DNA of 64,000 nt, taken from the NCBI RefSeq assembly GCF_009914755.1, contig NC_060934.1; one strand, 5' to 3'. The position numbers and the translations under genes are program-made. The stretch is from the human T2T-CHM13v2.0 reference genome, Homo sapiens. This document shows, piece after piece, positions 716-21,270 of this stretch (its first letter is position 1; every line of letters begins with the position of its first letter). Below the pieces are notes generated by a model. That model saw only the letters and a program-made list of their open reading frames with translations. It ran no database searches and had not been told where the DNA came from.

Positions 716-1196
716 CGTGGCCATCTCCTTACCACAGTTGATTCTAACCCAGTTGTTGAATTATTTGCCATACCTCACTCAGTTCAGCATGGCTATCAGT
801 ATGATGCACCCTTCTATGTCTCTGAGGATTTATAAGAGATCTAAATTTTTTAAAAAGAAAGAAACTGGACTGCCATCCAACAGTTCACAAAAATCAATTT
901 CAGATATATCAAAGACCCAGAGGTAAAAAGCAAAATTTCAAAGCTTTCAAAATTAAATGGGGGTGGGGGAATCTCTTAATATCCTTAGAGTAGAAAAAAT
1001 TCTTTAAAAAGACACAAAATGCACTATCTATATAGGACGCATTTTCAAATCTAGCCATATTGAAATTGATGATTTTTGTTAATCAAAAGTTACCTCAAAG
1101 GGAATGTTTTTAAAAGTCATGATATGAGATAAAATATTTGTAGCACATGTAACCAACAAGTGACTAGAACCTGGGTACATAAAGAACTCCTGTAAA

Positions 1197-1393
1197 CAGT
1201 GTTGTGCTGGAAGATGTTTAACAACTGACTCTCAGGCCCTAAAAGTCCTTATTTTTAGCATTTGCTTGTTTCCAGGATATAAACACTTCCATGTGGCCAA
1301 TTTCAAGCCACTAAGGTAAGGTCACCAAGCAGGGCCTTGGGGATAGATGGTCGCAGTTGGCTCTCACAAGGCAGGTATAAAGGCTGCAGCACA
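1197..1393. mobile_element. MER63-like hAT DNA transposon (MITE)
   Basis: Terminus CAGTGTTGTGCTGGAAGATGTTTAACAAC, internal GGCCAATTTCAAGC, other end ..CAGCACA. Confidence 0.65.
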
Positions 1394-1427
1394 AAAGTCA
1401 ACATGAAAAACAAAACAACCCAATGGG

Positions 1428-2167
<740 letters not shown>

Positions 2168-3089
2168 GGGGCATAAAAGAAAACCTAAATGGACAATAAA
2201 AACCTGAAAAGATGCTCAATCTTGTAACTGATGAGGGAAATGCAAATTAAAGCCACAATCAGATACATTTCACACCCTCCAGATTGACAGAAGTTAAAAA
2301 GTTTGTCAGTTTGGGGTTGGTGATTCGGAGCTGTGGAAGCTCTCACCCACGGCTGGCGGAGCCTGTGCTAGTACAAACCACTGTGAGAAGCAGTTTGGCA
2401 TTTCCTAGAAGAGGTGACTGTGCACACCCTACAACCAGCACTTTCATTCCTGTAAATGTAAACGTGCCCTAGGGAAACTCTTGCCCATGCACCCCGCAGG
2501 ACACACAGGGTTCGCGGGAGGACCATTAGCAATGGGAAAAAATGAAAACAACCCATGTGCCCATCAGCAACAAAATAAACTATAATCTCTGTATATGATG
2601 GAATACAATTTCACAGCAGTAAAACTAATGAATTGTGGCTACAGGTATCAATATGGACAAATCCCAAGAACTTCATGGAGAGAGAGAGAATCACAAAAGA
2701 ATAAACGTCACATAACTGCAATACTATAAAGTTCCTTATCTATACTAACAAAGACAGGGGTGTTTATCAGCAAACTCAATTTGGTGGTTGGAGAGAGGGG
2801 CAGGAGAGCAAGAGGGGTATGATCTGAGCGTGGGGCAGGAAGAGGGGCTAATCCATGCGACTGGAAATAGTTCGTTCTCAAACTGGGTGTGAGTGTGGAG
2901 GTGCTCACTGCATTGTTGCTGCTGAGACATACGCTTGCATTGGATAGATTCTTCCACGTGTGTATTTCAAATTTGGCTTCATCACAAGGCTTGTGGGGTG
3001 TAAAGCAGTGTATTAAGTGTGACAGCTGAGGAAAGCCCCAGCAGCAGGGGACAGAGAGAGGGGCACATGTTGTCACCTGGAGGTGGGGT

Positions 3090-3355
3090 GGTTGCGGGAG
3101 AAACGTCCAGGCTACAAACCGAGTTGCGAATCACAGAGGGACTTAGGCCGGGAAGGGGCAGCACGGCGCCCTCCAGGCAGAGAAGCAGCCCCGCGGCCAC
3201 CCTGATGCGGCGCGGACTCCTCCTGTCCAGTTCTCTGTCACACCTGCTGCCTGCCCCCTCGCCAACCCCTGCATACATGGCCCGCATATCAGAGGCGGAC
3301 GAAGAAGCGGCCAGAACTTAGCCAGTCTTCCTTCTTCATCTTCCTTCCTCCTAGT

Positions 3356-3401
<46 letters not shown>

Positions 3402-4740
3402 TGGGCATTAGCCTTTCCTCTGGTCGTGCCTCTATTTCAGCTTGAGATTTTCACCTTTCATCGCAAGGGTCTTCGCGGCAGAACGTGGCCGTCCCCACAG
3501 CCGTCGGGGGTTTCGGGTTGGATCCCGCGTTCGCTCCGCTGCTTGGCCTGCGCTTCAGCCTCTAGCGACCCAGCGGGGGCGCGACTTCCGAGCCGCCTCC
3601 GCCTCCCGCCTCTACCGCGGGGCCGGGGCGACCCCAGGTCTGCACGGCCGACCGCTGCGTCCAGAGAGATGGGGCCGAGCCTCCCTGCGGAGCAGAACCG
3701 TGGGACGGAGGGCGGTGGGCTCCGCAGGGAGGGGGCGCAGTCCGGGACAGACCCCAGCACAGGCTCCTTCCACCCTCCCGGGACAGCTCCGAAATCCCAG
3801 CCCTACGCCGGAGCTGCGGTTTGCAAAGCGCGGCTGGGCCTTAGGTCTTGCCCCCAGTTTCCTATGCCCTAGGACGTCCCCTTGGGGGCCAGCCACCCCC
3901 AGCCCGCGGAGGGAAGAGGGGCCCTTCCTTCGCGGACCGAGGGCGGCAGCCTGTGTGGGGATACCTGCGCAGGTGCAGCCCCGGTGAGAGCTCCTTACCA
4001 AGAAAGAGGGACATTCATTTCCCTCTCCAAGGTAGCAGCGTTGAAAGGCTTCTCCACAGCATTACTCAGTCCAACTAATGATGGGAAAAGGAGGGAAAAA
4101 CGAGGGCGCCGAGCCGCAACCGCTTGCCTACCTCCACCTAAAACGCAAACACAGCCCGAGTCGCCAGTGACCCTGACTCAGGCGGCCGCGGGCGTTCCCC
4201 ACGGCAGGACCTGGAGCCACACCCGGGCCCTCGGGGCTCCATGGCAGCGCGGCAGCGCCTCCTTCGCGGAGAAGCCCCACTGCCAGGAGAACCACTGCCG
4301 TCGGGAGACGACGTCTGTATTTGTAGGGAGTGAAAGGAGGCGCCGAGTCCCCCACGTTTCATCGCAGGGTCTTCGGGGCAGAATTCGGAGACACCTGTCA
4401 CGATGGGAGCAGTCAGGGCTTTCCTGGTTTTGGGGCCTCTGGCTTAGGTGGGCTGGCAATGCCTCTCCTTTCATTCCTGATAAACATGCTGGGCCGGAGC
4501 ACAGCGGCCATGGGGCTGTTTCTTGTGAGCCACGGCTAGTTCTAAACTGTACTGATTTGGACACCTGCCACCAGATGAGAAATTAGTAAAATGTGGTTAC
4601 CAAGGGACTGCTTCTCTGCTCTAGCTGTGAACGGGGTCCTTAGCGGCCTGCATGCCCGCGCCTCTCCAGACTGAGACCAAAGACTTCCGCGCCACCGTCG
4701 GCAGCTCGCGAACTTAGACTTCAGACCGTCTGCCGCACTG
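3090..4740. promoter_or_regulatory. CpG island / probable promoter
   Basis: Very high GC and CpG density, non-repetitive; ETS cores ACTTCCG at 3584 and 4683; CTCGCGA at 4705; candidate donors CCG|GTGAGA (+, 3984) and GAG|GTAGGC (-, 4131). Confidence 0.8.
3359..3398. repeat. (AC)20 microsatellite
   Basis: Perfect AC run. Confidence 0.97.
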
Positions 4741-5164
4741 CAATAAAGAGACCATGGTGGGGATACCTTTTAAATGATTTAAATGTGTCCTTCCTTCTGC
4801 AGCACACACACGTCCTCCTGAACTGGACACCTGGCCAGGCCAACGAAAAAGGAGAAGCTCTTTTGTAAGGTGGCAGGGACGCACCCCCTTAGCTAGAGAC
4901 AGGCTTCTAGGTGGCTCGCCTTCTACTGGTAGAACATGTAGGGTTATCTGCTAAAGTGTGGGACCTGCTACATTGAAGCCAATCTTCTCTGAGCAGGACT
5001 CAATTTATTTTTTTCTTAATTGCAACACATGAAAATTTTAGGTCACCAAGAAACACTAGTCAAAGGGTTTCATTTTCTGTTTATGGCCTATTTATTACAA
5101 TTCAGAAGAAAAATGACCAACTAGAAAAAAAATATGTAACACGTATCACGGACTGTCAAATGTC

Positions 5165-5372
<208 letters not shown>

Positions 5373-5401
5373 TTTTTTTCTTTATATGTAAGAAAACTTG
5401 G

Positions 5402-6757
5402 TGGAGACGGGGTTTCGCTGTGTTGGCCGGGCTGGTCTCCAGCTCCTAACTGCGAGTGATCTGCCAGCCTCGGCCTCCCAAGGTGCGGGGATTGCAGATG
5501 GAGTCTCGTTCACTCAGTGCTCAATGTTGCCCAAGCTGGAGTGCAGTGGCATGATCTCGGCTAGCTACAACCTCCACCTCCCAGCCACCTGCCTTGGCCT
5601 CCCAAAGTGCCGAGATTGCAGCCTCTGCCCTGCCGCCACCCCGTCTGGGAAGTGAGGAGCATCTCTGCCTGGCCGCCCATCGTCTGGGATGTGAGGAGCC
5701 CCTCTGCCCGGCTGCCCAGTCTGGGAAGTGAGGAGCGCCTCTTCCCGGGCGCCATCCCAACTAGGAAGTGAGGAGCGTCTCTGCCTGGCCGCCCATCGTC
5801 TGAGATGTAGGGAGCGCCTCTGCCCCATCTGGGATGTGAGGAGCGCCTCTGCCCGGCTGCGACCCCGTCTGGGAGGTGAGGAGTGTCTCTGCCCAGCAGC
5901 CCCGTCTGAGAAGCGAGGAGCCCCTCGGCCTAGCAGCCGCCCCATCTGAGAAGTGAGGAGCCCCTCCGCCCGGCAGCTGCCCCATCTGAGAAGTGAGGAG
6001 CGTCTCCGCCTGGCAGCCGCCCCGTCCGGGAGGGAGGTGGGGGGCAGACCCCTCCCGGCCAGCCTCCCGGTCCAGGAGGGAGGGGGGGGGCAGCCCCCTC
6101 CCGGCCAGCCTCCCCGTCCGGGAGGGAGTTGGGGGCCAGCCCCTGCCCGGCCAGCCGCCCTGTCCGGGAGGGAGGTGGGGGGCGCCTCTGCCCGGCTGCC
6201 CCTTCTGGGAAGTGAGGAGCCCCTCTGCCCGGCCGCCACCCTGTCTGGGAGGTGTACCCAACAGCTCATTGAGAACGGGCCATGATGATGATGGTGGTTT
6301 TGTGGAATAGAAAAGGGGGAAATGTGGGAAAAGATAGGGAAATCAGATTGTTGCTGTGTCTGTGTAGAAAGAAGTAGACATAGGAGACTCCATTTTGTTC
6401 TGTACTAAGAAAGATTCTTCTGCCTTGGGATGCTGTTGATCTATGACCTTGCTCCCAACCCTGTGCTCTCTGAAACATGTGCTGTGTCAACTCAGGGTTA
6501 AATGGATTAAGGGCAGTGCAAGATGTGCTTTGTTAAACAGATGCTTGAAGGCAGCATGCTCGTTAAGAGTCATCACCACTCCCTAATCTCAAGTACCCAG
6601 GGACACAAACACTGCAGAAGGCCGCAGGGTCCTCTGCCTAGGAAAACCAGAGACCTTTGTTCACTTATCTGCTGACCTTCCCTCCACTATTGTCCTATGA
6701 CCCTGCCAAATCCCCTTCTGGGAGAAACACCCAAGAATGATCAATTAAAAAAAAAAA
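5402..6757 (+). mobile_element. 5'-truncated SVA retrotransposon (older, SVA_B/C-like)
   Basis: Antisense Alu-like part, GC-rich VNTR (~5630-6250), SINE-R (~6250-6745), ATTAAA + poly(A); TSD AAGAAAACTTGG at 5390-5401 and 6758-6769; no CCCTCT hexamer head. Confidence 0.96.
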
Positions 6758-6769
6758 AAGAAAACTTGG

Positions 6770-7490
6770 CAAAGGATATGGACAGACAGGAAATCCAGCT
6801 GGATCTTCAGCATATAAAAGATGCTCTACCACACTGGTAATAAGAAAACTATACTTTAAAACTACAAGATACTATTTTACAGTCTCAGATAGGCCAAGTT
6901 CAAAAATGAGGAGAGTGGCTCGTGTCTGGGAGGCTGTGGGGTCTGCGCGGTCACTCATTACTCTCCTTATGCCCCCTGGGGAGATGGCATGGCAGGCAGT
7001 TTACCTTCCAAAGGTAACAGTTCACACACTCTTTAACAAAGCAATTCTGCTCCTTTGTCCTACGGACTTGCTTGCATATGAAATGGCCTGCCAGTGAGAA
7101 TGTGCACTGCAACGTGGTTTCCAGTAGCGAATATGAAACCAATCTACATCTCCATAAATAAGAGATGGGTGAGATAGTGATGCATTCACAGAACCATGAG
7201 TAGCCATGAAAAAAATGAGTGTCTTTATATGAACTAATATGCAGAGATCTCTAAGAAATATTATTAAAGGAAATGCAAGGTGCAGAACTGTGGGTACACC
7301 TACCACTAATGTAAAACACTAAAAAGCATTGTGTAAGGATATAAAAGAGGTTGCTCATAGTGTTCCTTCCAGGGAAAGAAAATGGGATGACTGTGGGAGA
7401 AGGGTTGGAGGAGATTTAACTTTCACTTTCAAACTTTTTGCTGTGTTCATACTTTGTCTATTCAAAAAAATTAACAAATAAAAATGCATT
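6770..7490 (+). mobile_element. Degraded L1M 3' fragment
   Basis: GGCAAAGGATATGGACAGACA..ATAAAAGATGCTCTACC..; host of the SVA insertion. Confidence 0.55.
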
Positions 7491-10041: not shown

Positions 10042-10323
10042 TGACAGGTTTTCCTTCATACGTTACCTGATACTTTTGCCTCATAACTCTTAAGATTCTT
10101 TCCTTCATCTTGACTAGATAATGTGATGAATATGTGCCAAGGTAATGATCTTTTTGTGATGAATTTCCAAGGTTTTCTTTGAGCTTCTTGTATTTGGATG
10201 TCTAGGTCTCTAGAAAGGCCAGGGAAGTTTTCCTTGATTATTCCCTCAAATATGTTTTTTAAACTTTTAGATTTCTTTTCTTCCTCAGGAATATCAATTA
10301 TTCTTATATTTTGTCACTTAACA
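10042..10323 (-). pseudogene. Inverted internal fragment of L1 ORF1
   Basis: Minus-strand translation includes KERILRVMRQKYQVTYEGKP (ORF1p C-terminal half), opposite to the rest of the element. Confidence 0.85.
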
Positions 10324-13748
<3,425 letters not shown>

Positions 13749-14297
13749 TTTTTTGTTTTTTTTTTTTTTTGTCTTTTAACAGCCAACAGTTTATTGTACA
13801 CTAGTCTTGAGCAGCTTCAATCTGAATTCATCTCCCCAGGACAGGAAGAAGTCAGGAGATCTCGGGGAGACAGAGCTTATATCCTTTCTTATTCAGAACT
13901 GCCACAACCCCTATCCCTCACCAGTCAGGCCCCACATCACACCAGTGGCCCAGCTGGAATTCTAACATCAGCTAATTCCTTTATATTCTTGTCGTTCTTG
14001 ACATTGCCAGAAAACGTAATCTCTCATGCTTTCCAATCCCAATAGTGTTTTCTCTGGGCCTCCTAACCCCCCTCTCTGTCCACAAATCTCCTTTTCAGTT
14101 GCAACCCCCATCCAATTTTAAACAACTTCCACATTTTCAATACTGAGGTTAATCATTAATTGAGCTGTAATGGGTATGTGTTGTCTACTAAGTGTTTTGG
14201 AAAGTCACTTTGACACTTATCTAATATTATAGGCATGCACTCATCCTTCCCATGACCCTTTTCCTTCCACATACTTTAGAATGTTCTTCCTTGATAG

Positions 14298-14880
14298 GAA
14301 TGTAAGCTCTATGAGGGCATGTGTTTTTGTTTTATTCACTAATGTGGATCAAGTAACCATAGCAGCGCCTCTCGTATAGTAGGTATTCAATAAATAAGCA
14401 TTGAATAAATGAATTTAATGAGCATACATTCAGCAAATATATGGTTATATGACAATATGACAATGAATGAGTAAAATAATATTTTCCCTTATGGAGTTTA
14501 CATTCTAATGTGTAAATGCCGGAAGCCTATGACAAACAGACAATAAGCATGTAAACAGATATAATTCCATACTCTCATTAATCTATGGGGAAAATAAATC
14601 ACATTAGGGAAATAGAGAATGACTGGTAGAAAGAATTTTGGTTATTTTAGATAGACTGGTTAAGACAATTCTCCTTGGGGAGGCAAATCTGGGCAGAATA
14701 CTGATGTGAGGCAAAATGAAGATTTTGGACATAAAAAGACTTGGGAATAGGCAGGAGTAATAAACAGAGAATATAAAGATCTTGATATGGCAAAATGTTT
14801 TATGCATTTGAGAGAAAGAGTGGTTGGAGATAATGTTAGGGAGATGAGGAAAGGCCATGTTGTACAGGTCTTACAGGTTA
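14298..14880. mobile_element. L2 fragments (tail-to-tail) within transduced DNA
   Basis: GAATGTAAGCTCTATGAGGGCA..TAGTAGGTATTCAATAAATA..TTGAATAAATGAAT (L2 3' end) followed by antisense L2-like sequence. Confidence 0.65.
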
Positions 14881-14887
14881 CCTATAC

Positions 14888-15233
14888 CTGGGGGTCCCTA
14901 ACCCCTGGGCCTTGGACGGATACCAGTACCGGTCTGTGGCATATTAAAAACTGGGTGGCACAGCAGGAGGTGAGCAGCGGGCTAGCGAGCATTACCTCCT
15001 GAGCTCCGCCTCCTGTCAGATCAGTGGTGGCATTAGATTCTCATAGGACAGGAACCCTATTGTGAACTGCTCATGCAAGGGATCTAGGTTGCACTCTCCT
15101 TATGATAATCTAATGCCTGATGATCTGAGGTGGAACAGTTTAATCCCCAAACTATCCCCACACTGTCCCTTCCCACAGAAAAATTGTCTTCCTTGAAACC
15201 AGTCCCTGGGGCCAAAAATATTAGGGACCACTG
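14888..15233. mobile_element. MER1B hAT MITE within transduced DNA
   Basis: GAGCTCCGCCTCCTGTCAGATCAGTGGTGGCATTAGATTCTCATAGG; TIR-like ends; degenerate 8-bp TSD ACCTATAC/ATCTATAG. Confidence 0.85.
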
Positions 15234-16009
15234 ATCTATAGGATTTTCATTTTATTTAAATGTGATGTGAAAGCATGGGAAAGTTTGGAAAAGTCTCATG
15301 ATCTTATTTAGGATGATAAAATCATGAATTAAAAAGCTACTTGGTGGAGAGAGAAAGCAAAGAGACCAGCAAGGAGGCTATTGTAGCATCAAGTGACAAA
15401 TGATGGTGGATTGAGCCAGAATGGTGGCAGTGGAGTGGAATCAGGTTCTGGATATTCTTTGAAGATGGATTTGATATGGTAAGGGAAGGAGAGGAATTAA
15501 GAATAGGTCCTAGATTCCTCAGCTGAGCTGGGAAAATCCATTTTACTATTAGTGTTTCCTCAGGAAGAGAATGAGCTAATACATTTGGGGAAAATATTAT
15601 CACTTCCTGAAAACTGAAAAGAAAATGATCATTTTTTAAAAATCTATTGTATCCTTTGTTTTCTCTTAACGTTCTTTTGTCTCCCAGCCTTTTATTTTGA
15701 AAAATGTTAACTTCAATAAGAATTTGAAAAAAATAGTACAACCATATACCCTTTACCTACGTTCACTAATTATTAACATTTTGCTACATTTGCTTTCTCT
15801 GTCTTTTCACATATACACACAAACACACACAGTTTTTCTCTGAAATATTTGAAAGTATGTTGCAGACATCATGAAACTGCACTGCTAGTATTTTGGTATA
15901 TATTTACACATATTTACTGAGAACAAGAAGATTTTCTTATAGAAATACAAGACCAGAGAAATTTTACATAGCTACAGTGCTTTTTTTAAAAATTTATCTC
16001 CCACTATCT

Positions 16010-16487
16010 CTTTATTTATTTATTTATTTATTTATTATTATACTTTAAGTTTTAGGGTATATGTGCACAATGTGCAGGTTAGTTACATATGTATACATGT
16101 GCCATGCTGGTGCGCTGCACCCACTAACTCGTCATCTAGCATTAGGTATATCTCCCAATGCTATCCCTCCCCCCTCCCCCCACCCCACAACAGTCCCCAG
16201 AGCGTGATGTTCCCCTTCCAGTGTCCATGTGTTCTCATTGTTCAATTCCCACTTATGAGAGAGAATATGCGATGTTTGGTTTTTTGTTCTTGTGATAGTT
16301 TACTGAGAATGATGATTTCCAATTTCATCCATGTCCTTACAAAGGACATGAACTCATCATTTTTTATGGCTGCATAGTATTCCATGGTGTATATGTGCCA
16401 CATTTTCTTAATCCAGTCTATCATTGTTGGGCATTTGGGTTGGTTCCAAGTCTTTGCTATTGTGAATAATGCCGCAATAAACATACG
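16010..16487 (-). mobile_element. 5'-truncated young L1 (L1PA2-like)
   Basis: CACCCACTAACTCGTCATCTAGCATTAGGTATATCTCCCAATGC (GAG-type 3'UTR); ORF2 C-terminus RMFIAALFTIAKTWNQPKCP..SLISGN; (TAAA)n tail. Confidence 0.92.
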
Positions 16488-17381
16488 ACACATGCATGTT
16501 TATAGCAGTATAATTTGCAATTACAAAACATGGAACCAGCTCAAATGTCCATCAATCAATGAGTGGATAAAGAAAATGTGGTATATATGTATATATACCA
16601 TGGAATACGACTCAGCCATAAAAAGGAACAAAATAATGGCATTCGCAACAACCTGGATGGAGTTGGAGACCATTATCATAAGTGAAGTAACTCAGGAATG
16701 GAAAACCAAACATCATATATTCTCACTCATAAGTGGGAGCTAAGCTATGAGGATGCAAAGGCATAAGAATGATACAATGGACTTTGGAGATCAAGGAAAA
16801 GGGTGGTGGGGGTGGGGGATAAAACTCTACACACTGGGTACAGTGTACACTGCCCGGGTGATGGGTGCACCAAAATTTTAGAAATCACCACTAAAGAACT
16901 TATTCATGTACAATAAATAAATAAATAAAAATTAACAGGGGGAAAATTGGTACATGGAATGTCAGGGGGCCTTAGGCAACGCTGCCCTGGGGCAGAACCC
17001 CCTGCTCTCCCACCAAGACACAGTGCCCTCCCCAACCCTATCAAGCAGCTGGCCCTGAAGGAACAGTGTACACCTGAGGGGCCCAGGCAGGAGGCTGGAG
17101 CTTAGGGCATAGGAGAGGAGCCAAGAGGTTGTGAAGACAGAGTAGCTGCAGGGGAGGTGCAGACTCCACCACCTAAAGGGTGCCTGCAGGGGCCTGAGAG
17201 CCAAGACCAAGGCTCTGCACCATGGGGTGGCCTCCTGCATCTCCCGCCATGTGGACTCTGCACAGGTTGGATTATATCCCTTGAACCTGAAGAGCCGCCT
17301 TAACATTTTTTGGGATTCCATGTTTGTGCTGACAACACCACCCCTTCCTTCCACAACACTGGGCATGGTGCCCAACTTGGA

Positions 17382-17613
17382 CCATGGGTTGTCAATCAAC
17401 GAGTGGATGATCAGCCCTCAGGCCAAGTCCTCCCACACCCTGTGTTTGTGAATACAATGTTATTGATCAAGGCAGTGCACATTGATGAAACTGTTGTCCA
17501 CACCTGCCTTCACGCTGTAACAGCAGGGTTGAGTTGTTGTGACAGAGACCATGTGGTAGCAAAGCCTGAAATATTTACCCTCTAGCTCTTTACAGAAAGG
17601 ATTGTCAATCCTG
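17382..17613. mobile_element. MER58A-like hAT MITE
   Basis: GTTGAGTTGTTGTGACAGAGACC..AAAGCCTGAAATATTTAC..CTTTACAGAAA. Confidence 0.7.
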
Positions 17614-17762
17614 AGGAAATCAACAGGAAGGAAACTATTCCAGTTTCTAAAAATGTGAGTGTTTTGTGTGGTGAAAGAGACCATACATTTCTAAGAGAAA
17701 TGATAGAGACAGACTGGAGAAAATACTTGCAACATATGCATTTACAAAATTTAATAACTCTT

Positions 17763-17921
17763 GGCTGGGCGTGGTGGCTCATGCCTATAATCCCAGCACT
17801 TTGGGAGGCCGAGGCAGCTGAATCACTTGAACCCCGGAGGTGGAGGTTGCGGAAAGCCGAGATTGTGCCACTACACTCCAGCCTGGGCAACAGAGCAAGA
17901 CTCCATCTCAAAAAAAAAAAA
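17763..17921 (+). mobile_element. Single-arm Alu (left/right arm hybrid)
   Basis: Left-arm start CCCAGCACTTTGGGAGGCCGAGGC fused to right-arm AATCACTTGAACCC..; TSD TTAATAACTCT at 17751 and 17922. Confidence 0.85.
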
Positions 17922-18555
17922 TTAATAACTCTAATATTCCAAGGCTTCTACAAATTAATGAGAAAAAGGCAAACACAATAAAATAGAAAAATAGAAAAAT
18001 GGGCAAAGGAGTTGAACAGAAAAAGCACACCAAATACAAATGATTTATGAATTTATGAGAGACAAATGTCATAAGTTATTAAGAAAACAGAAATGTCACA
18101 GTGTTTTTCACTCACATTGATAGTATTGAGTCTTGATAAGGATGAAGGGAACGCTGTGCCTTTGGGAGAAGCATCAATGAGCACACTTGTTTTGGAGAGG
18201 GTAATCTATCTAAACTAACACTAAATTTTTTAAAAATGCATATCTTTGCTAGATAGTATCATTTCTAGATGTCTAATCTATAGAAATAATCATACAAGTT
18301 CAAAAATAAATACAGAAGGATTGTCATCCTATCATTACATGAGATAACATTTTTTTAGAGAAAACCTGAACACTAATTAATGGAAAATGGTTACATAAAT
18401 TGTAATGCATACATTTTGTAAAATAGGCAGTTATTAAAAGGAATGAAATGCATCAATATTTTCTAAATGTAATAACTACTAAGATATATTGTTGAGTAAA
18501 AAAGCAAGTTGAAAAACATTATGAATTGCATGATTGCATTCTAAAACATAAAATC

Positions 18556-18608
18556 TGTGTGTGTGTATGTGTGTGCACATGTGTGTGTATGTGTGCATGT
18601 GTATGTGT
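18556..18608. repeat. Imperfect (TG)n
   Basis: TG/TA/CA alternating tract. Confidence 0.8.
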
Positions 18609-18674
18609 TCTAGGGAAAGGAGCGATGGCCACCTACCTCCTTCACTGGTGTGTGGTAGGCAGGGTTGCTGCTCT

Positions 18675-19130
18675 ATAAGCTAAGATATTGATTTGGCTGC
18701 TTTAGCAAAGATCAAAATAACAGTGACTTAACAATAAAGAAGTTTGGTTCTCCCTCTCGTTAAAGTCTTGGATTAGTAGAAAGGCCAGAGGTCAAAGTTT
18801 CCAGAGTCCTACCTGTCTCATCACTGTGCCATTCTGTCAGTGCATCTCAGCTCCACACAGTTGCAGCTGGAGGACCATGGCCTGGGCAGCAGGAAGGGGG
18901 AATGTGGAGGAAAGGACAGATAGGCTCTGTGGAAGGCATGACCCAGAGTTCTACATGTGATTTAAATCACCTTCTTTTGGCCAAAACATAGTCATGTGGC
19001 CACACCACGTAGGCTGGGAAAAAAAGCAGTCCTTGGCTAGGCAGCCCCATGCCCAGCTAAAATGTAGAGGTATCTGTTATTAAAAGAAAAACAGAAGAAG
19101 TCAATATTTGGGTATAATGAGTAGTCTCTT
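18675..19130 (-). mobile_element. Ancient MLT1 LTR remnant
   Basis: AAAATAACAGTGACTTAACAATAAAGAAG and TTGGCCAAAACATAGTCATGTGGCCACACC. Confidence 0.5.
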
Positions 19131-19387
19131 CCTATGGATGTCCTGCTGTCTTCCTTGCCAACAGAAAATCATAAAATCGACAATGGAGAAACAGCAGACG
19201 GATTATGAAAGAATGCAATTTGTCTATAGCAGACTTATCCACAACAGTAACAGGCAACAGAAGATGGAAAATTATATTTGCAAAGTAATGAGAGAAACCA
19301 GTGTGAGCATAGCATCCTACATTATGCAAATGATCATTTAAGAGGAAGGGAAAGAGAAAAACATTTCAGAGCAAGACAGTGAGAATT

Positions 19388-19541
19388 GGCCAGGCACGGT
19401 GGCTCGTGCCTTTAATCCCAGCATTTTGGGAGGCCAAAGCAGGAGGATTGCTTGAGCCCAGGAGTTTGAGACCAGCCTGGGCAACTTGGTGAAATCCTGT
19501 CTGTATTAAAAACAAAACAAAACAAAACAGAAAAAAAAAAA
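19388..19541 (+). mobile_element. FLAM-like free left Alu monomer
   Basis: GGAGGATTGCTTGAGCCCAGGAGTTTGAGACCAGCCTGGGCAAC + A-rich tail; flanking repeat AGTGAGAAT. Confidence 0.8.
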
Positions 19542-20066
19542 GGTAGTGAGAATGTACCATTAATAGACATGTGCTGAAAGAACTACTAACAGATGTACTA
19601 TATTTCAAGAAGAAGGAAATTGAACACAGAAGGAACTGAGGTGCAAGAAGTAATGGTATAGAAGAACACTGGAAATATATGGTATTTCTAGAAAGCTTTA
19701 GCTGAATCCATCAGTAATAATAAACGTAATAGTTCTGAATGTATAAAAGTAAGTTGGAAATTTCCAGCTGGAAAAAGATGGCTTAGACTAGTTTTCCTTG
19801 CACCTTCCCTCTACACACAGCTATAAACCCTAGAATAATGTAAGAGGCAACCAAAGGAGAACTCTCATAGGTGTTAACAGGAAAGTGAACTGGTTTGGGC
19901 CTCAGGGATGGATGAAGTGCAGCTGCAGGGAATCTTATTTCCCCTTACCAGATGGAGGACAGTGACCCAGGTCCAGTGTTTCCCATCCCCAACACAGTGA
20001 CAGAAGGCAGCCAAGGAATCCTCATTCCTGTCCTGGAACTACAGGAGTCCCTCCTACAGCACCAGG

Positions 20067-21270
20067 TGTATTCATCTTCTGTTGTTGCTATAACAAAATT
20101 ACCACAAACTTAGTGGCTTAAGTAACTACACATTTATTATTTTCCAGTTGTGGAGGTCAGAGGTCTCAAACTGGTCTCACTGGGAAAAACTCAAGGTCTT
20201 CAGGGCTGTATTCCCTTTGGAGCTCTAGGGGGGGATCCATTCCCTTGTCATTTCCAGCTTTAGAGGCTGCCCACACTCCTTGGCTAGTGGCCCCTTCCTC
20301 CATCTCCAAGCCAGCCACATCATGTTGAGTCCTGCTCATTCTTCCATCTCTTATTTTCTCTCTACTGCCTTCACCTTCCATTAACAAGAACTCTTGTGAT
20401 TACATTGTATGTTTGTGGTTACACTACAGAATCCAAGATGACCTCCCCATCTCAAGGTCAACTAATTAACACCTTAATTCTATTTGCAATCTTTGTCATT
20501 ACCATAACATATTCATGGGTTCTGGGATAAGGGGTAGACATTTTTATGGAGGCATTAGTCTGCTTACCACAGACTGCCCTCTGGCCCCCAAAGATACACA
20601 TCTATCCCATATGCAAAATGCATTCCACTCCAAGATTCCCAGCCTTATCAACCCATTAAAGTAACAACTCAAAGTCCAAAATCTCATCTAACTTTCAGAT
20701 TAGCTCCAAAGTGCCAAAATGCATCATCCGAGGCTCTGGGAGTGATCCATCCTGGGGCACAATTCTTCTTCATCTGTGAACCTGGGAAATTCAAGAAACA
20801 AGTTATCTACTCCCAAAATACAAAGGTGAGACAGGCATGGGATAACAGTGATAGATATTTCCATTCAAAAAGAGAAGAGGAAGAAAAAGGAGTTGCCAGT
20901 CCCAATCAATTTCAAAATCAAGCCAGGCACATTCCATTTTGTTTCAAGGCCTGAGAATAATTCTCTGTGGCTCAAGACTCAGACCCCCCTGAGCTAGTGG
21001 CTCTGCCTTTGGAGTCATCCTTCCTTTTTCTTGAAGGGTATCACATGTTTACAGCTGAGTAGTTTTATCATCACATTTTTTGCCTGTAGAATTTGAGAGT
21101 GGCGGGGGCGGTCTAACAGCCCTTTTTCATTTTGCTTTCTCTCTGTACTTTTCTTTCCAAGCTAGCAGTGTTTCTGTTGGTATAACATCCTCAAGAGCCT
21201 TGTGAGTCTCCCATGTTTGTCACAGGGATTCACACCATTGGATAAGAGACTCATCTAAGGATCTTTCATA
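20067..21270 (-). mobile_element. MLT1D-like LTR (20067-20571) plus adjoining MaLR internal sequence
   Basis: TACCACAAACTTAGTGGCTTAA..TAGAGGCTGCCCACACTCCTTGGCT..TACCACA, then internal CCCTCTGGCCCCCAAAGAT..CATATGCAAAAT. Confidence 0.75.

What the first reader, a model, noticed from the sequence alone, without database searches (positions are those of the whole stretch)
13736..16501. Complete L1PA2 3' transduction carrying ~2.2 kb of foreign DNA into an old L1PB
Seen: L1PB ORF2 stops at ..CACACGCATGTTT (13736-13748) and resumes at CACATGCATGTTT (16489-16501). Between them, on the minus strand, lie ~480 bp of L1PA2-type 3' end, its (TAAA)n tail, 2.24 kb of non-L1PB sequence, AATAAA (13790-13795) and, 19 nt later, a ~25-nt poly(A). 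The nick site TGTTT/AT resembles the L1 endonuclease consensus TTTT/AA. Established: L1 read-through mobilises 3' flanks, and L2 went extinct long before L1PB, so L2 pieces cannot have inserted here themselves. Inference: this segment is a barcode of a source L1 elsewhere and a hidden recent duplication.
Basis: partly seen in the sequence, partly recalled or inferred. Interest (0 to 1): 0.8.

Follow-up and report, generated by a model that had tools for sequence, protein, structure and literature searches.

The report
L1 insertion carrying copied chr2 DNA
A young L1 jumping gene landed inside an older L1 on chromosome 10 and dragged along 2.2 kb copied from chromosome 2, which is a clean but ordinary case of a well-known process (3' transduction).

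Summary
Window 13749-16488 is one retro-insertion on the minus strand. It consists of a 451-nt young L1PA 3' end, a (TAAA)n tail, a 26-nt unmatched linker, 2,214 nt of foreign DNA, AATAAA, and a 22-nt poly(A) 19 nt later. A 13-bp target-site duplication flanks it.

- **Empty site.** A 90%-identical paralogue of the whole region, chr10:37.70 Mb, has no insert and a single 13-mer.
- **Parent locus.** The foreign DNA has exactly one other copy in CHM13, chr2:156,715,607-156,717,816. It differs at 35 of 2,210 positions. Homology stops exactly at the poly(A) addition site, so chr2 is the parent and the transfer went through RNA.
- **Failed prediction.** No L1 lies directly 5' of the chr2 segment. 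Homology starts at a TT|AAAA L1-endonuclease site. The nearest L1 is 2.35 kb upstream, 94.9% identical and shares 0 private variants, so it is not the source.

My best reading is a classical 3' transduction from a source L1 allele that was never fixed. A template-switch chimera is the main rival. The event dates to about the human-chimpanzee to human-gorilla divergence level. No gene, ORF or Rfam RNA is carried. The biology is ordinary and the interest is low.

The parts
12047..13748 (+). Host old L1 (ORF2 part), 5' side of the insertion; its last 13 nt are the left TSD copy
   Evidence: aligns to ruler L1 positions 5040-6745 at 74.7%; best non-paralogous genome matches are 83-86% identical.
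13736..13748 (.). Left TSD copy, CACACGCATGTTT
   Evidence: There is a single copy in the paralogue.
13749..13770 (-). New poly(A) tail: 22 nt with one interruption
   Evidence: It is absent at the chr2 parent, which continues with unrelated sequence.
13771..15984 (-). Transduced DNA copied from chr2:156,715,607-156,717,816 (+ strand of chr2 = RNA sense)
   Evidence: 35 mismatches in 2,210 aligned columns plus one 4-nt indel. It is the only other copy in the genome.
13790..13795 (-). AATAAA polyadenylation signal used by the read-through RNA; cleavage 19 nt downstream
   Evidence: The same hexamer sits in the chr2 parent, and homology ends 19 nt after it.
15985..16010 (-). 26-nt linker (AAA, TTTTT and an 18-nt unique stretch) with no match at chr2 or next to any L1 tail in CHM13
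   Evidence: (query positions 1-26 unmatched).
16011..16036 (-). (TAAA)n tail inherited from the source L1
   Evidence: period 4, 6.5 copies, 100% matches.
16037..16487 (-). 5'-truncated young L1PA 3' end (end of ORF2 plus 3' UTR), starting at ruler position 6737
   Evidence: 39 non-self matches at 97-98%..
16488..16488 (-). One extra, non-L1, non-TSD nucleotide at the 5' junction
   Evidence: column 0: present in the window only.
16489..16501 (.). Right TSD copy, CACATGCATGTTT
16489..16930 (+). Host old L1, 3' side, resuming at ruler position 6733 and running to its own (AATA)n tail at 16912-16929
   Evidence: ruler 6733-6990. L1-family matches cover query 1-422, up to 443. AATA repeat.

Best explanation
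**What happened.** A young L1PA element (L1PA2/L1PA3 grade) was transcribed through its own weak polyadenylation signal and (TAAA)n tail. Transcription continued into 2.2 kb of chr2 DNA and was cleaved 19 nt after the next AATAAA. L1 ORF2p nicked the sense strand of an older L1 on chr10 at GTTT/AT and primed reverse transcription on the poly(A). It copied the chr2 DNA, the linker, the tail and the last 451 nt of L1, then stopped. The 5' end was joined with one extra nucleotide, and a 13-bp TSD was filled in.

**Where the source was.** The source L1 most likely sat immediately 5' of chr2:156,715,607. That position is a TT|AAAA endonuclease site and is exactly where homology begins. The source would have been an allele that was never fixed, so CHM13 shows the empty chr2 site. 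The 26-nt linker would be part of that source's 3' tail. It could be a mini-transduction from its own parent, because its length fits cleavage 23-26 nt after the last AATAAA of a (TAAA)n tail.

**Shown:** the insertion anatomy, the TSD and empty site, the chr2 parentage, the RNA intermediate, and the absence of an adjoining L1 in CHM13.

**Inferred:** the position and loss of the source L1, and the origin of the linker.

**Confidence.** The figure given is for the whole statement, including the lost source L1 at chr2. The core claim, an L1-mediated retro-insertion of a chimeric L1-chr2 RNA, I hold at about 0.97.
For: - **Anatomy and TSD:**
- **Empty site:** the 89-90% paralogue has a single 13-mer and no insert.
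- **Only one other copy of the 2.2 kb.**: 2 of 40 scored hits are full length (self and chr2); 8 of 8 candidates were scored, and 2 are full length; 40 of 122 were scored, and 2 are long.
- **RNA intermediate:** chr2 homology ends exactly at the poly(A) addition site, 19 nt after a shared AATAAA.
- **Endonuclease site at the parent:** homology begins at GATT|AAAAGCA on chr2.
- **L1 fragment is young L1PA:** 39 non-self matches at 97-98%. It is in the same orientation as the chr2 RNA sense strand.
- **Divergence:** 35 of 2,210 = 1.58%.
- **Literature (passages read).** Read-through into a downstream poly(A) signal gives 3' transductions, which have two A-rich stretches; serial transductions are known (PMC4859970). 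About 10% of reference L1 insertions carry one (PMC4862182).
Against: - The defining contiguity of L1 plus flank at the source is not seen in CHM13. No L1 abuts chr2:156,715,607.
- The 26-nt linker is unexplained. Two overlapping 23-mers covering the linker and the last bases of the tail, searched at up to 2 mismatches, gave 3 and 4 non-self hits. None of these 7 lies next to an L1 tail.
- None of the 29 fetched L1 copies, taken from the 39 non-self matches scored, shares more than 2 of the fragment's 9 private variants, so no sibling or parent was identified.
- Ape genomes and pangenomes could not be searched, so loss of the source allele is inferred, not shown.
Confidence: 0.75

Rival explanations
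1. Template-switch chimera. L1 reverse transcriptase started on the poly(A) of an independent chr2 transcript and copied 2.2 kb. At the A-run (AAAA) its T-ended cDNA then annealed to the poly(A) tail of an L1 mRNA, one that had been cleaved 23-26 nt past its (TAAA)n tail, and RT continued on that template. On this reading no L1 ever sat at the chr2 locus.
For: - No L1 adjoins the chr2 parent.
- The junction is an A-run (A7 in the window, A4 on chr2), which is compatible with microhomology to a poly(A) tail.
- The linker length fits normal cleavage after the last AATAAA of the tail.
- Template jumping by L1-type RTs is an accepted model (PMC2912911, passages).
- Bipartite chimeric retrocopies are known. 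This is recalled; no paper on them was read here.
Against: - It needs an unspliced polyadenylated chr2 transcript for which there is no evidence here: no ORF longer than 100 aa and no Rfam hit.
- It needs a rarer event class than 3' transduction.
- It still needs a source L1 plus flank that is missing from CHM13.
- TT|AAAA at the breakpoint is the L1 endonuclease consensus, as expected for an L1 insertion there.
Confidence: 0.13
2. The extant full-length L1PA 2.35 kb upstream on chr2 (about C2:156,707,176-156,713,258, same strand, also with a (TAAA)n tail) is the source. The intervening 2.35 kb was either spliced out of the read-through RNA or inserted later.
For: It has the same orientation, is close by, and has a (TAAA)n tail.
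Against: - It is only 94.9% identical to the window fragment, against 98.4% for the flank.
- It shares 0 non-majority variants with the window fragment.
- Its post-tail sequence is different, and it has its own TSD.
- The linker is absent from the 15-kb chr2 stretch examined.
- The spacer is mostly old repeats, so it was not inserted later.
- (TAAA)n-type tails are common among the 29 comparison L1s, so the shared tail type means little.
Confidence: 0.03
3. This is not one retro-event. It is either a DNA-level duplication or several independent insertions that happen to abut.
For: None specific.
Against: - A single 13-bp TSD brackets the whole block, and the paralogue is empty.
- The copy ends at a poly(A) site and carries an untemplated A-tail.
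- The old repeats inside are colinear with chr2.
Confidence: 0.01

Closest known systems
L1 3' transduction, 'partnered' type (first shown by Moran 1999; genome surveys by Goodier 2000 and Pickeral 2000. All three are cited from the reference list of PMC4859970; they were not read)
   Same: - The L1 3' end and its own A-rich tail are followed by unique downstream DNA.
- A second poly(A) signal and tail are present.
- One TSD flanks the whole composite.
- The nick site is endonuclease-like.
- A parent locus exists whose homology stops at the poly(A) site.
   Different: - The parent locus in this genome lacks the adjoining source L1.
- A 26-nt stretch of unknown origin lies between the tail and the transduced DNA.
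Serial 3' transductions (mentioned in PMC4859970, passage read)
   Same: The linker, followed by a short A-run and then a second transduced segment, has the layout expected from two successive read-throughs.
   Different: The first-generation flank was not found next to any L1. Only 2-mismatch 23-mer hits were found at unrelated places, so seriality is not shown.
Chimeric retrocopies formed by RT template switching (recalled; no paper read)
   Same: Two RNA-derived parts are fused, and one TSD and one poly(A) flank the composite.
   Different: As I recall them, the 5' part of the described chimeras is usually a complete small RNA. Here it is a 5'-truncated L1 3' end, and the junction coincides with an L1 endonuclease consensus at the parent locus.
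Twin priming and 5'-junction annealing models (PMC2912911, passages read)
   Same: The 13-nt target overhang is complementary to the incoming L1 RNA at ruler 6733-6745. This is the configuration that twin priming requires.
   Different: No 5' inversion resulted. The L1 simply ends at ruler 6737, with one extra nucleotide.

Membership tests
L1 3' transduction | L1 3' end at the 5' side of the insert, in the same orientation as the carried DNA, followed by the source's own A-rich tail | tested here: met
   L1PA 3' end at 16037-16487 (-), (TAAA)6.5 at 16011-16036.
L1 3' transduction | Carried DNA is non-L1 and has a parent locus elsewhere | tested here: met
   there is one parent, chr2:156,715,607-156,717,816, at 98.4% identity.
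L1 3' transduction | Parent homology ends at a cleavage site downstream of a poly(A) signal, and the copy carries an untemplated poly(A) | tested here: met
   AATAAA is shared, homology ends 19 nt later, and the 22-nt A-tail is present only in the window.
L1 3' transduction | One TSD brackets L1 plus carried DNA; an empty site exists | tested here: met
   13-bp TSD, and the paralogue C10:37,704,542-37,704,554 has one copy and no insert.
L1 3' transduction | L1 endonuclease-type nick site (TTTT/AA-like, pyrimidines/purines) | tested here: met
   GTTT/AT on the primed strand. Variants such as TTTT/AT are listed in PMC4859970 Table 1.
L1 3' transduction | A source L1 lies directly 5' of the parent segment | tested here: not met
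   old repeats run up to the breakpoint, and the nearest L1PA ends 2.35 kb upstream and is unrelated. This was tested in CHM13 only; other haplotypes and apes cannot be tested with these tools.
L1 3' transduction | The source's 3' TSD is included at the start of the carried DNA | not testable with these tools
   It needs the filled source allele. The start of the homology (AAAAGCA...) is at a TT|AAAA site, which is compatible.
Processed pseudogene (retrocopy of a spliced mRNA) | Intron loss relative to the parent; coding or known RNA content | tested here: not met
   colinear with genomic chr2 over 2,210 columns with only one 4-nt indel; no Rfam hit and no ORF longer than 100 aa.
   No reference consensus was available. 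Indirect evidence: best genome matches are 96.7-97.8%, the 29 comparison copies are 97.3% alike, and the fragment reads GAG at the position I recall as Ta-diagnostic. This is compatible with L1PA2 or L1PA3.
   The host is only 72-75% identical to a young L1PA, but 83-89% identical to its best non-paralogous relatives. It is an old lineage distinct from L1PA. The name is unverified.

The most novel reading that the evidence does not exclude
The 5' truncation point was not random. The new L1 starts at ruler position 6737. This lies inside the same 13 nt (6733-6745) that form the target site in the inverted host L1, and at the apex of a predicted L1 RNA hairpin. The 13-nt target overhang is complementary to the incoming L1 RNA at that spot. 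It could therefore tether the second DNA end onto the template, so that the reverse transcriptase jumped to it there, adding one extra nucleotide. If this is general, homology between the target and the incoming RNA would set the truncation point whenever an L1 lands inverted in an older L1.
Probability: 0.15. Interest if true: 0.45.

Novelty: new member of a known kind. Interest (0 to 1): 0.2.

Why it matters
The finding matters mainly as a worked example.

- A 2.2-kb interchromosomal duplicate (chr2 to chr10, 98.4% identity) is explained to the base, with an in-genome empty site as a control.
- A transduced 'barcode' can outlive its source L1. The chr10 copy may be the only remaining record of an L1PA progenitor that sat at chr2:156.7156 Mb and was never fixed.
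- The duplicate is a small mapping hazard.
- The segment carries no gene, ORF or known RNA, and no RefSeq functional element lies in it. No functional consequence is expected.

Tried and rejected
1. **The chr2 L1PA 2.35 kb upstream as the source.** Rejected: 94.9% identity, 0 shared private variants, a different post-tail flank, and its own TSD.
2. **Origin of the linker.**
   - Two overlapping 23-mers covering the linker and the last bases of the tail were searched genome-wide at up to 2 mismatches. One search gave 3 non-self hits (reversed-pattern control 0). One search gave 4 non-self hits (control 3).
   - None of the 7 lies next to an L1 tail. One follows an Alu tail.
   - The hit at C5:81,818,185 is followed by AAAGCAT, which resembles the junction. 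It has 2 mismatches and no L1, so it is unproven.
   - The linker and the three loci have no similarity to L1.
   - The linker is not present in 15 kb of chr2.
3. **Sibling or parent L1 by private variants.** Among the 29 fetched L1 copies (taken from the 39 non-self matches; 40 of 4,218 candidates were scored), the maximum shared is 2 of 9.
4. **Recurrence of the mirrored junction.** A gapped palindrome pattern was searched genome-wide. It matched 4 places including self (reversed control 0). Of the 3 non-self places:
   - 2 are uninterrupted single L1 copies that match through L1's own quasi-palindrome plus small indels;
   - 1 is a 5'-truncated L1PA starting at ruler 6732, behind a palindromic non-L1 stretch;
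   - 0 are L1-in-L1 mirror junctions.
   
   The pattern demands exact matches, so this is only weak evidence against recurrence.
5. **Carried genes.** Rfam and ORF listing found nothing.
7. **Literature.**
   - No paper naming this locus turned up in searches. None of these targeted the coordinates, so this is not a claim of absence from print.
   - The hot 2q24.1 Ta source element in 10.1101/2024.08.27.596794 (passages) gives 234-bp transductions. No coordinates were seen, and no link to this locus is shown.
   - Pickeral 2000 (PMC310862) is not held.
Full report

Yes. On the + strand the order is as follows.
- Host L1 sequence ends in CACACGCATGTTT (13736-13748).
- A 22-nt T-run with one G follows (13749-13770). 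TRF reports a T-run at 13746-13770.
- TTTATT lies at 13790-13795.
- About 2.2 kb of non-L1 DNA follows.
- (TTTA)6.5 lies at 16011-16036.
- The reverse complement of an L1 3' end runs from 16037 to 16487, with one extra base at 16488.
- CACATGCATGTTT (16489-16501) follows, and the host L1 then continues.

Read on the minus strand, this is an L1 3' end, its (TAAA)n tail, foreign DNA, AATAAA, 19 nt, and poly(A).

**2. It is one insertion with a 13-bp TSD.**

I aligned each host flank separately to a full-length L1 used only as a coordinate ruler. The ruler is the L1PA at C2, local coordinates 1176-7258 of the fetched stretch.
- Flank A (window 12047-13748) ends at ruler 6745.
- Flank B (16489-16751) starts at ruler 6733.

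The two flanks therefore overlap by exactly 13 positions.

Searches with the flanks found a paralogous copy of the whole neighbourhood on the same chromosome.
- Window 10058-13748 aligns with C10:37,700,842-37,704,554 at 89.1%.
- Window 16489-17830 aligns with C10:37,704,542-37,705,881 at 89.9%.
- Window 17767-20829 aligns with C10:37,705,953-37,709,000 at 89.3%. The last alignment is cut by my fetch.

The paralogue reads ...cttgCACACCCATGTTTatagcag..., with one 13-mer and no insert. It serves as an in-genome empty site. The single TSD mismatch is CpG versus TpG. The primed strand was nicked at GTTT/AT, a pyrimidine/purine site of the L1 endonuclease type. Variants of this kind are tabulated in PMC4859970 (passages).

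**3. Where the 2.2 kb came from.**

The whole genome could be searched. Window 13771-16009 has exactly one other long match, C2:156,715,607-156,717,816.
- In one search, 40 of 4,646 candidates were scored. The other 38 match only query 1121-1491, a high-copy repeat.
- The two repeat-poor parts were searched separately and again found only self and C2. In one search, 8 of 8 candidates were scored, and the other 6 hits are 38-121 nt long. In one search, 40 of 122 were scored, and the others are 213 nt or shorter.

A global alignment gives 35 mismatches in 2,210 columns (1.58%; Jukes-Cantor 1.60%). Of these, 26 are transitions and 5 are in CpG context. There is one 4-nt indel.

At the 3' side both loci share AATAAA and the next 19 nt. 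The window then has poly(A), while chr2 continues with unrelated sequence. So chr2 is the parent and the copy went through a polyadenylated RNA. There are no siblings in CHM13.

**4. The source L1 is not where predicted.**

In L1 orientation the window reads: L1, then (TAAA)6.5, then a 26-nt linker, then AAAAGCAC.... On chr2, homology starts at ...GATT|AAAAGCAT..., a TT|AAAA endonuclease consensus. What lies upstream of that point is old repeat DNA, not an L1.

The nearest L1 is a full-length L1PA on the same strand, at local coordinates about 1176-7258.
- Its reading frames are interrupted: the stop-free stretches are 227, 502 and 713 aa.
- It has its own TSD.
- It ends 2.35 kb upstream.
- The spacer holds the remainder of an older L1, two Alus and other old repeats.
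- It is 94.9% identical to the window fragment, and its post-tail sequence differs.

Measured against the majority state of 29 comparison L1s, the window fragment departs at 9 substitution columns and the chr2 L1 at 15 columns. They share none. (TAAA)n-type tails are frequent among the 29, so the shared tail type is not informative. This L1 is therefore not the source.

The linker has no counterpart.
- Two overlapping 23-mers covering the linker and the last bases of the tail, searched at up to 2 mismatches, gave 3 and 4 non-self hits. None of the 7 lies next to an L1 tail.
- The linker is absent from the 15-kb chr2 stretch.
- It shows no similarity to L1.

**5. What kind of L1, and when.**

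- The fragment has 39 non-self matches at 97-98% (40 of 4,218 candidates were scored).
- Against 29 fetched copies it averages 97.0%. Those 29 are 97.3% alike among themselves.
- It reads GAG at the trinucleotide that I recall as Ta-diagnostic (ACA in Ta). It is therefore a young pre-Ta L1PA.
- L1PA2 versus L1PA3 could not be decided without reference consensus sequences.
- The host L1 is only 72-75% identical to L1PA but 83-89% identical to its best non-paralogous relatives. It belongs to an old, separate lineage, which is compatible with 'L1PB' but unverified.
- The 1.6% parent-copy divergence lies between the human-chimpanzee and human-gorilla genome divergences as I recall them (about 1.2-1.4% and 1.6-1.75%). 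The event probably predates the human-chimpanzee split and is far younger than the split from Old World monkeys.

**6. Mechanism.**

The best reading is a classical partnered 3' transduction by target-primed reverse transcription. The source was an L1 that sat at the TT|AAAA site on chr2 and was never fixed.

This is plausible on population-genetic grounds (inference). An active L1 produces most of its offspring while it is still polymorphic, and most polymorphic insertions are then lost.

The linker has the length expected if the source's own parent RNA was cleaved 23-26 nt after the last AATAAA of a (TAAA)n tail. That would make this a serial transduction, but it is not shown.

The main rival is an RT template switch from a chr2 transcript onto the poly(A) of an L1 mRNA. 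It explains the A-run junction without any chr2 L1. It needs an otherwise unseen transcript and a rarer class of event, and it still needs a missing L1 locus.

**7. A detail at the 5' junction.**

- The new L1 starts at ruler 6737, inside the same 13 nt (6733-6745) that were duplicated in the inverted host.
- As a result, the insert and the host form an imperfect palindrome with 11 nt between the arms (I4). Folded as single-stranded DNA it gives z -3.95, and 0 of 200 shuffles fold as well.
- The L1 RNA around this point folds into a hairpin whose ACAC loop is ruler 6734-6737: -16.1 kcal/mol, z -3.4, with 1 of 200 shuffles folding as well.
- The 13-nt target overhang is complementary to the incoming RNA at 12 of 13 positions plus one G·U pair. 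I worked this out by reading the sequences.

This could have tethered the second DNA end where the reverse transcriptase stopped, followed by a template jump with one extra nucleotide. The models are described in PMC2912911 (passages).

A genome-wide pattern for such mirrored junctions at this site found no further L1-in-L1 case: 0 of 3 non-self places. I therefore rate this reading as unlikely but not excluded. Chance coincidence remains possible.

**8. Content and consequence.**

The carried DNA holds old interspersed repeats.
- One is a roughly 350-bp element with terminal inverted repeats at 14891-15240, with many copies at about 80% identity.
- Older fragments lie near 14298-14421 and 15671-15878.
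- No tool named these families.

There is no Rfam match and no ORF longer than 100 aa. According to the hub's annotation note, no gene is annotated in the window and none of the listed functional elements falls within the insert.

**9. Verdict.**

This is a well-preserved instance of a well-known process. About 10% of reference L1 insertions carry 3' transductions (PMC4862182, passage). The predicted adjoining source L1 is absent in CHM13. Interest is low.

Noticed in passing
window 10058-20829 (excluding the insert) vs L052 = C10:37,700,842-37,709,000: The neighbourhood of the finding is an old intrachromosomal duplicate, colinear at 89-90% identity, lying about 6 Mb away on the same chromosome. 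The right end of the alignment is cut by my fetch, so the full extent is unknown.
   Followed up: partly
window 14891-15240: Inside the transduced DNA there is a roughly 350-bp interspersed repeat with terminal inverted repeats (GGTCCCTAA...TTAGGGACC). It dominates: 4,646 first-look candidates, and 38 of the 40 scored hits match only this part, at about 78-84% identity. The family name was not determined.
   Followed up: no
L055 (C18:30,433,964-30,434,017): Another 5'-truncated L1PA starts at ruler position 6732, 5 nt from the window's truncation point. It is preceded by a roughly 45-nt palindromic non-L1 stretch. This hints that the hairpin apex might be a recurrent truncation point, but it is a single case.
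   Followed up: partly
L015 (C5:81,818,185-81,818,207): This 23-mer matches the linker with 2 mismatches and is followed by AAAGCAT, which resembles the linker/chr2 junction. No L1 is present there. It could be an empty grandparent site or a chance match.
   Followed up: partly
L011 (C2:156,706,001-156,716,000): The chr2 parent region holds a full-length L1PA with interrupted reading frames, nested in an older L1 (TSD AAAAACTGGTTGA / AAAAAGTGGTTGA). An Alu abuts its tail and a second Alu sits inside an old palindromic repeat.
   Followed up: partly
literature, 2q24.1: A very active Ta-subfamily L1 source in tumours is reported at 2q24.1, with 234-bp transductions (10.1101/2024.08.27.596794, passages). 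I saw no coordinates. I did not establish whether the chr2 parent lies in that band, and no link is shown.
   Followed up: no
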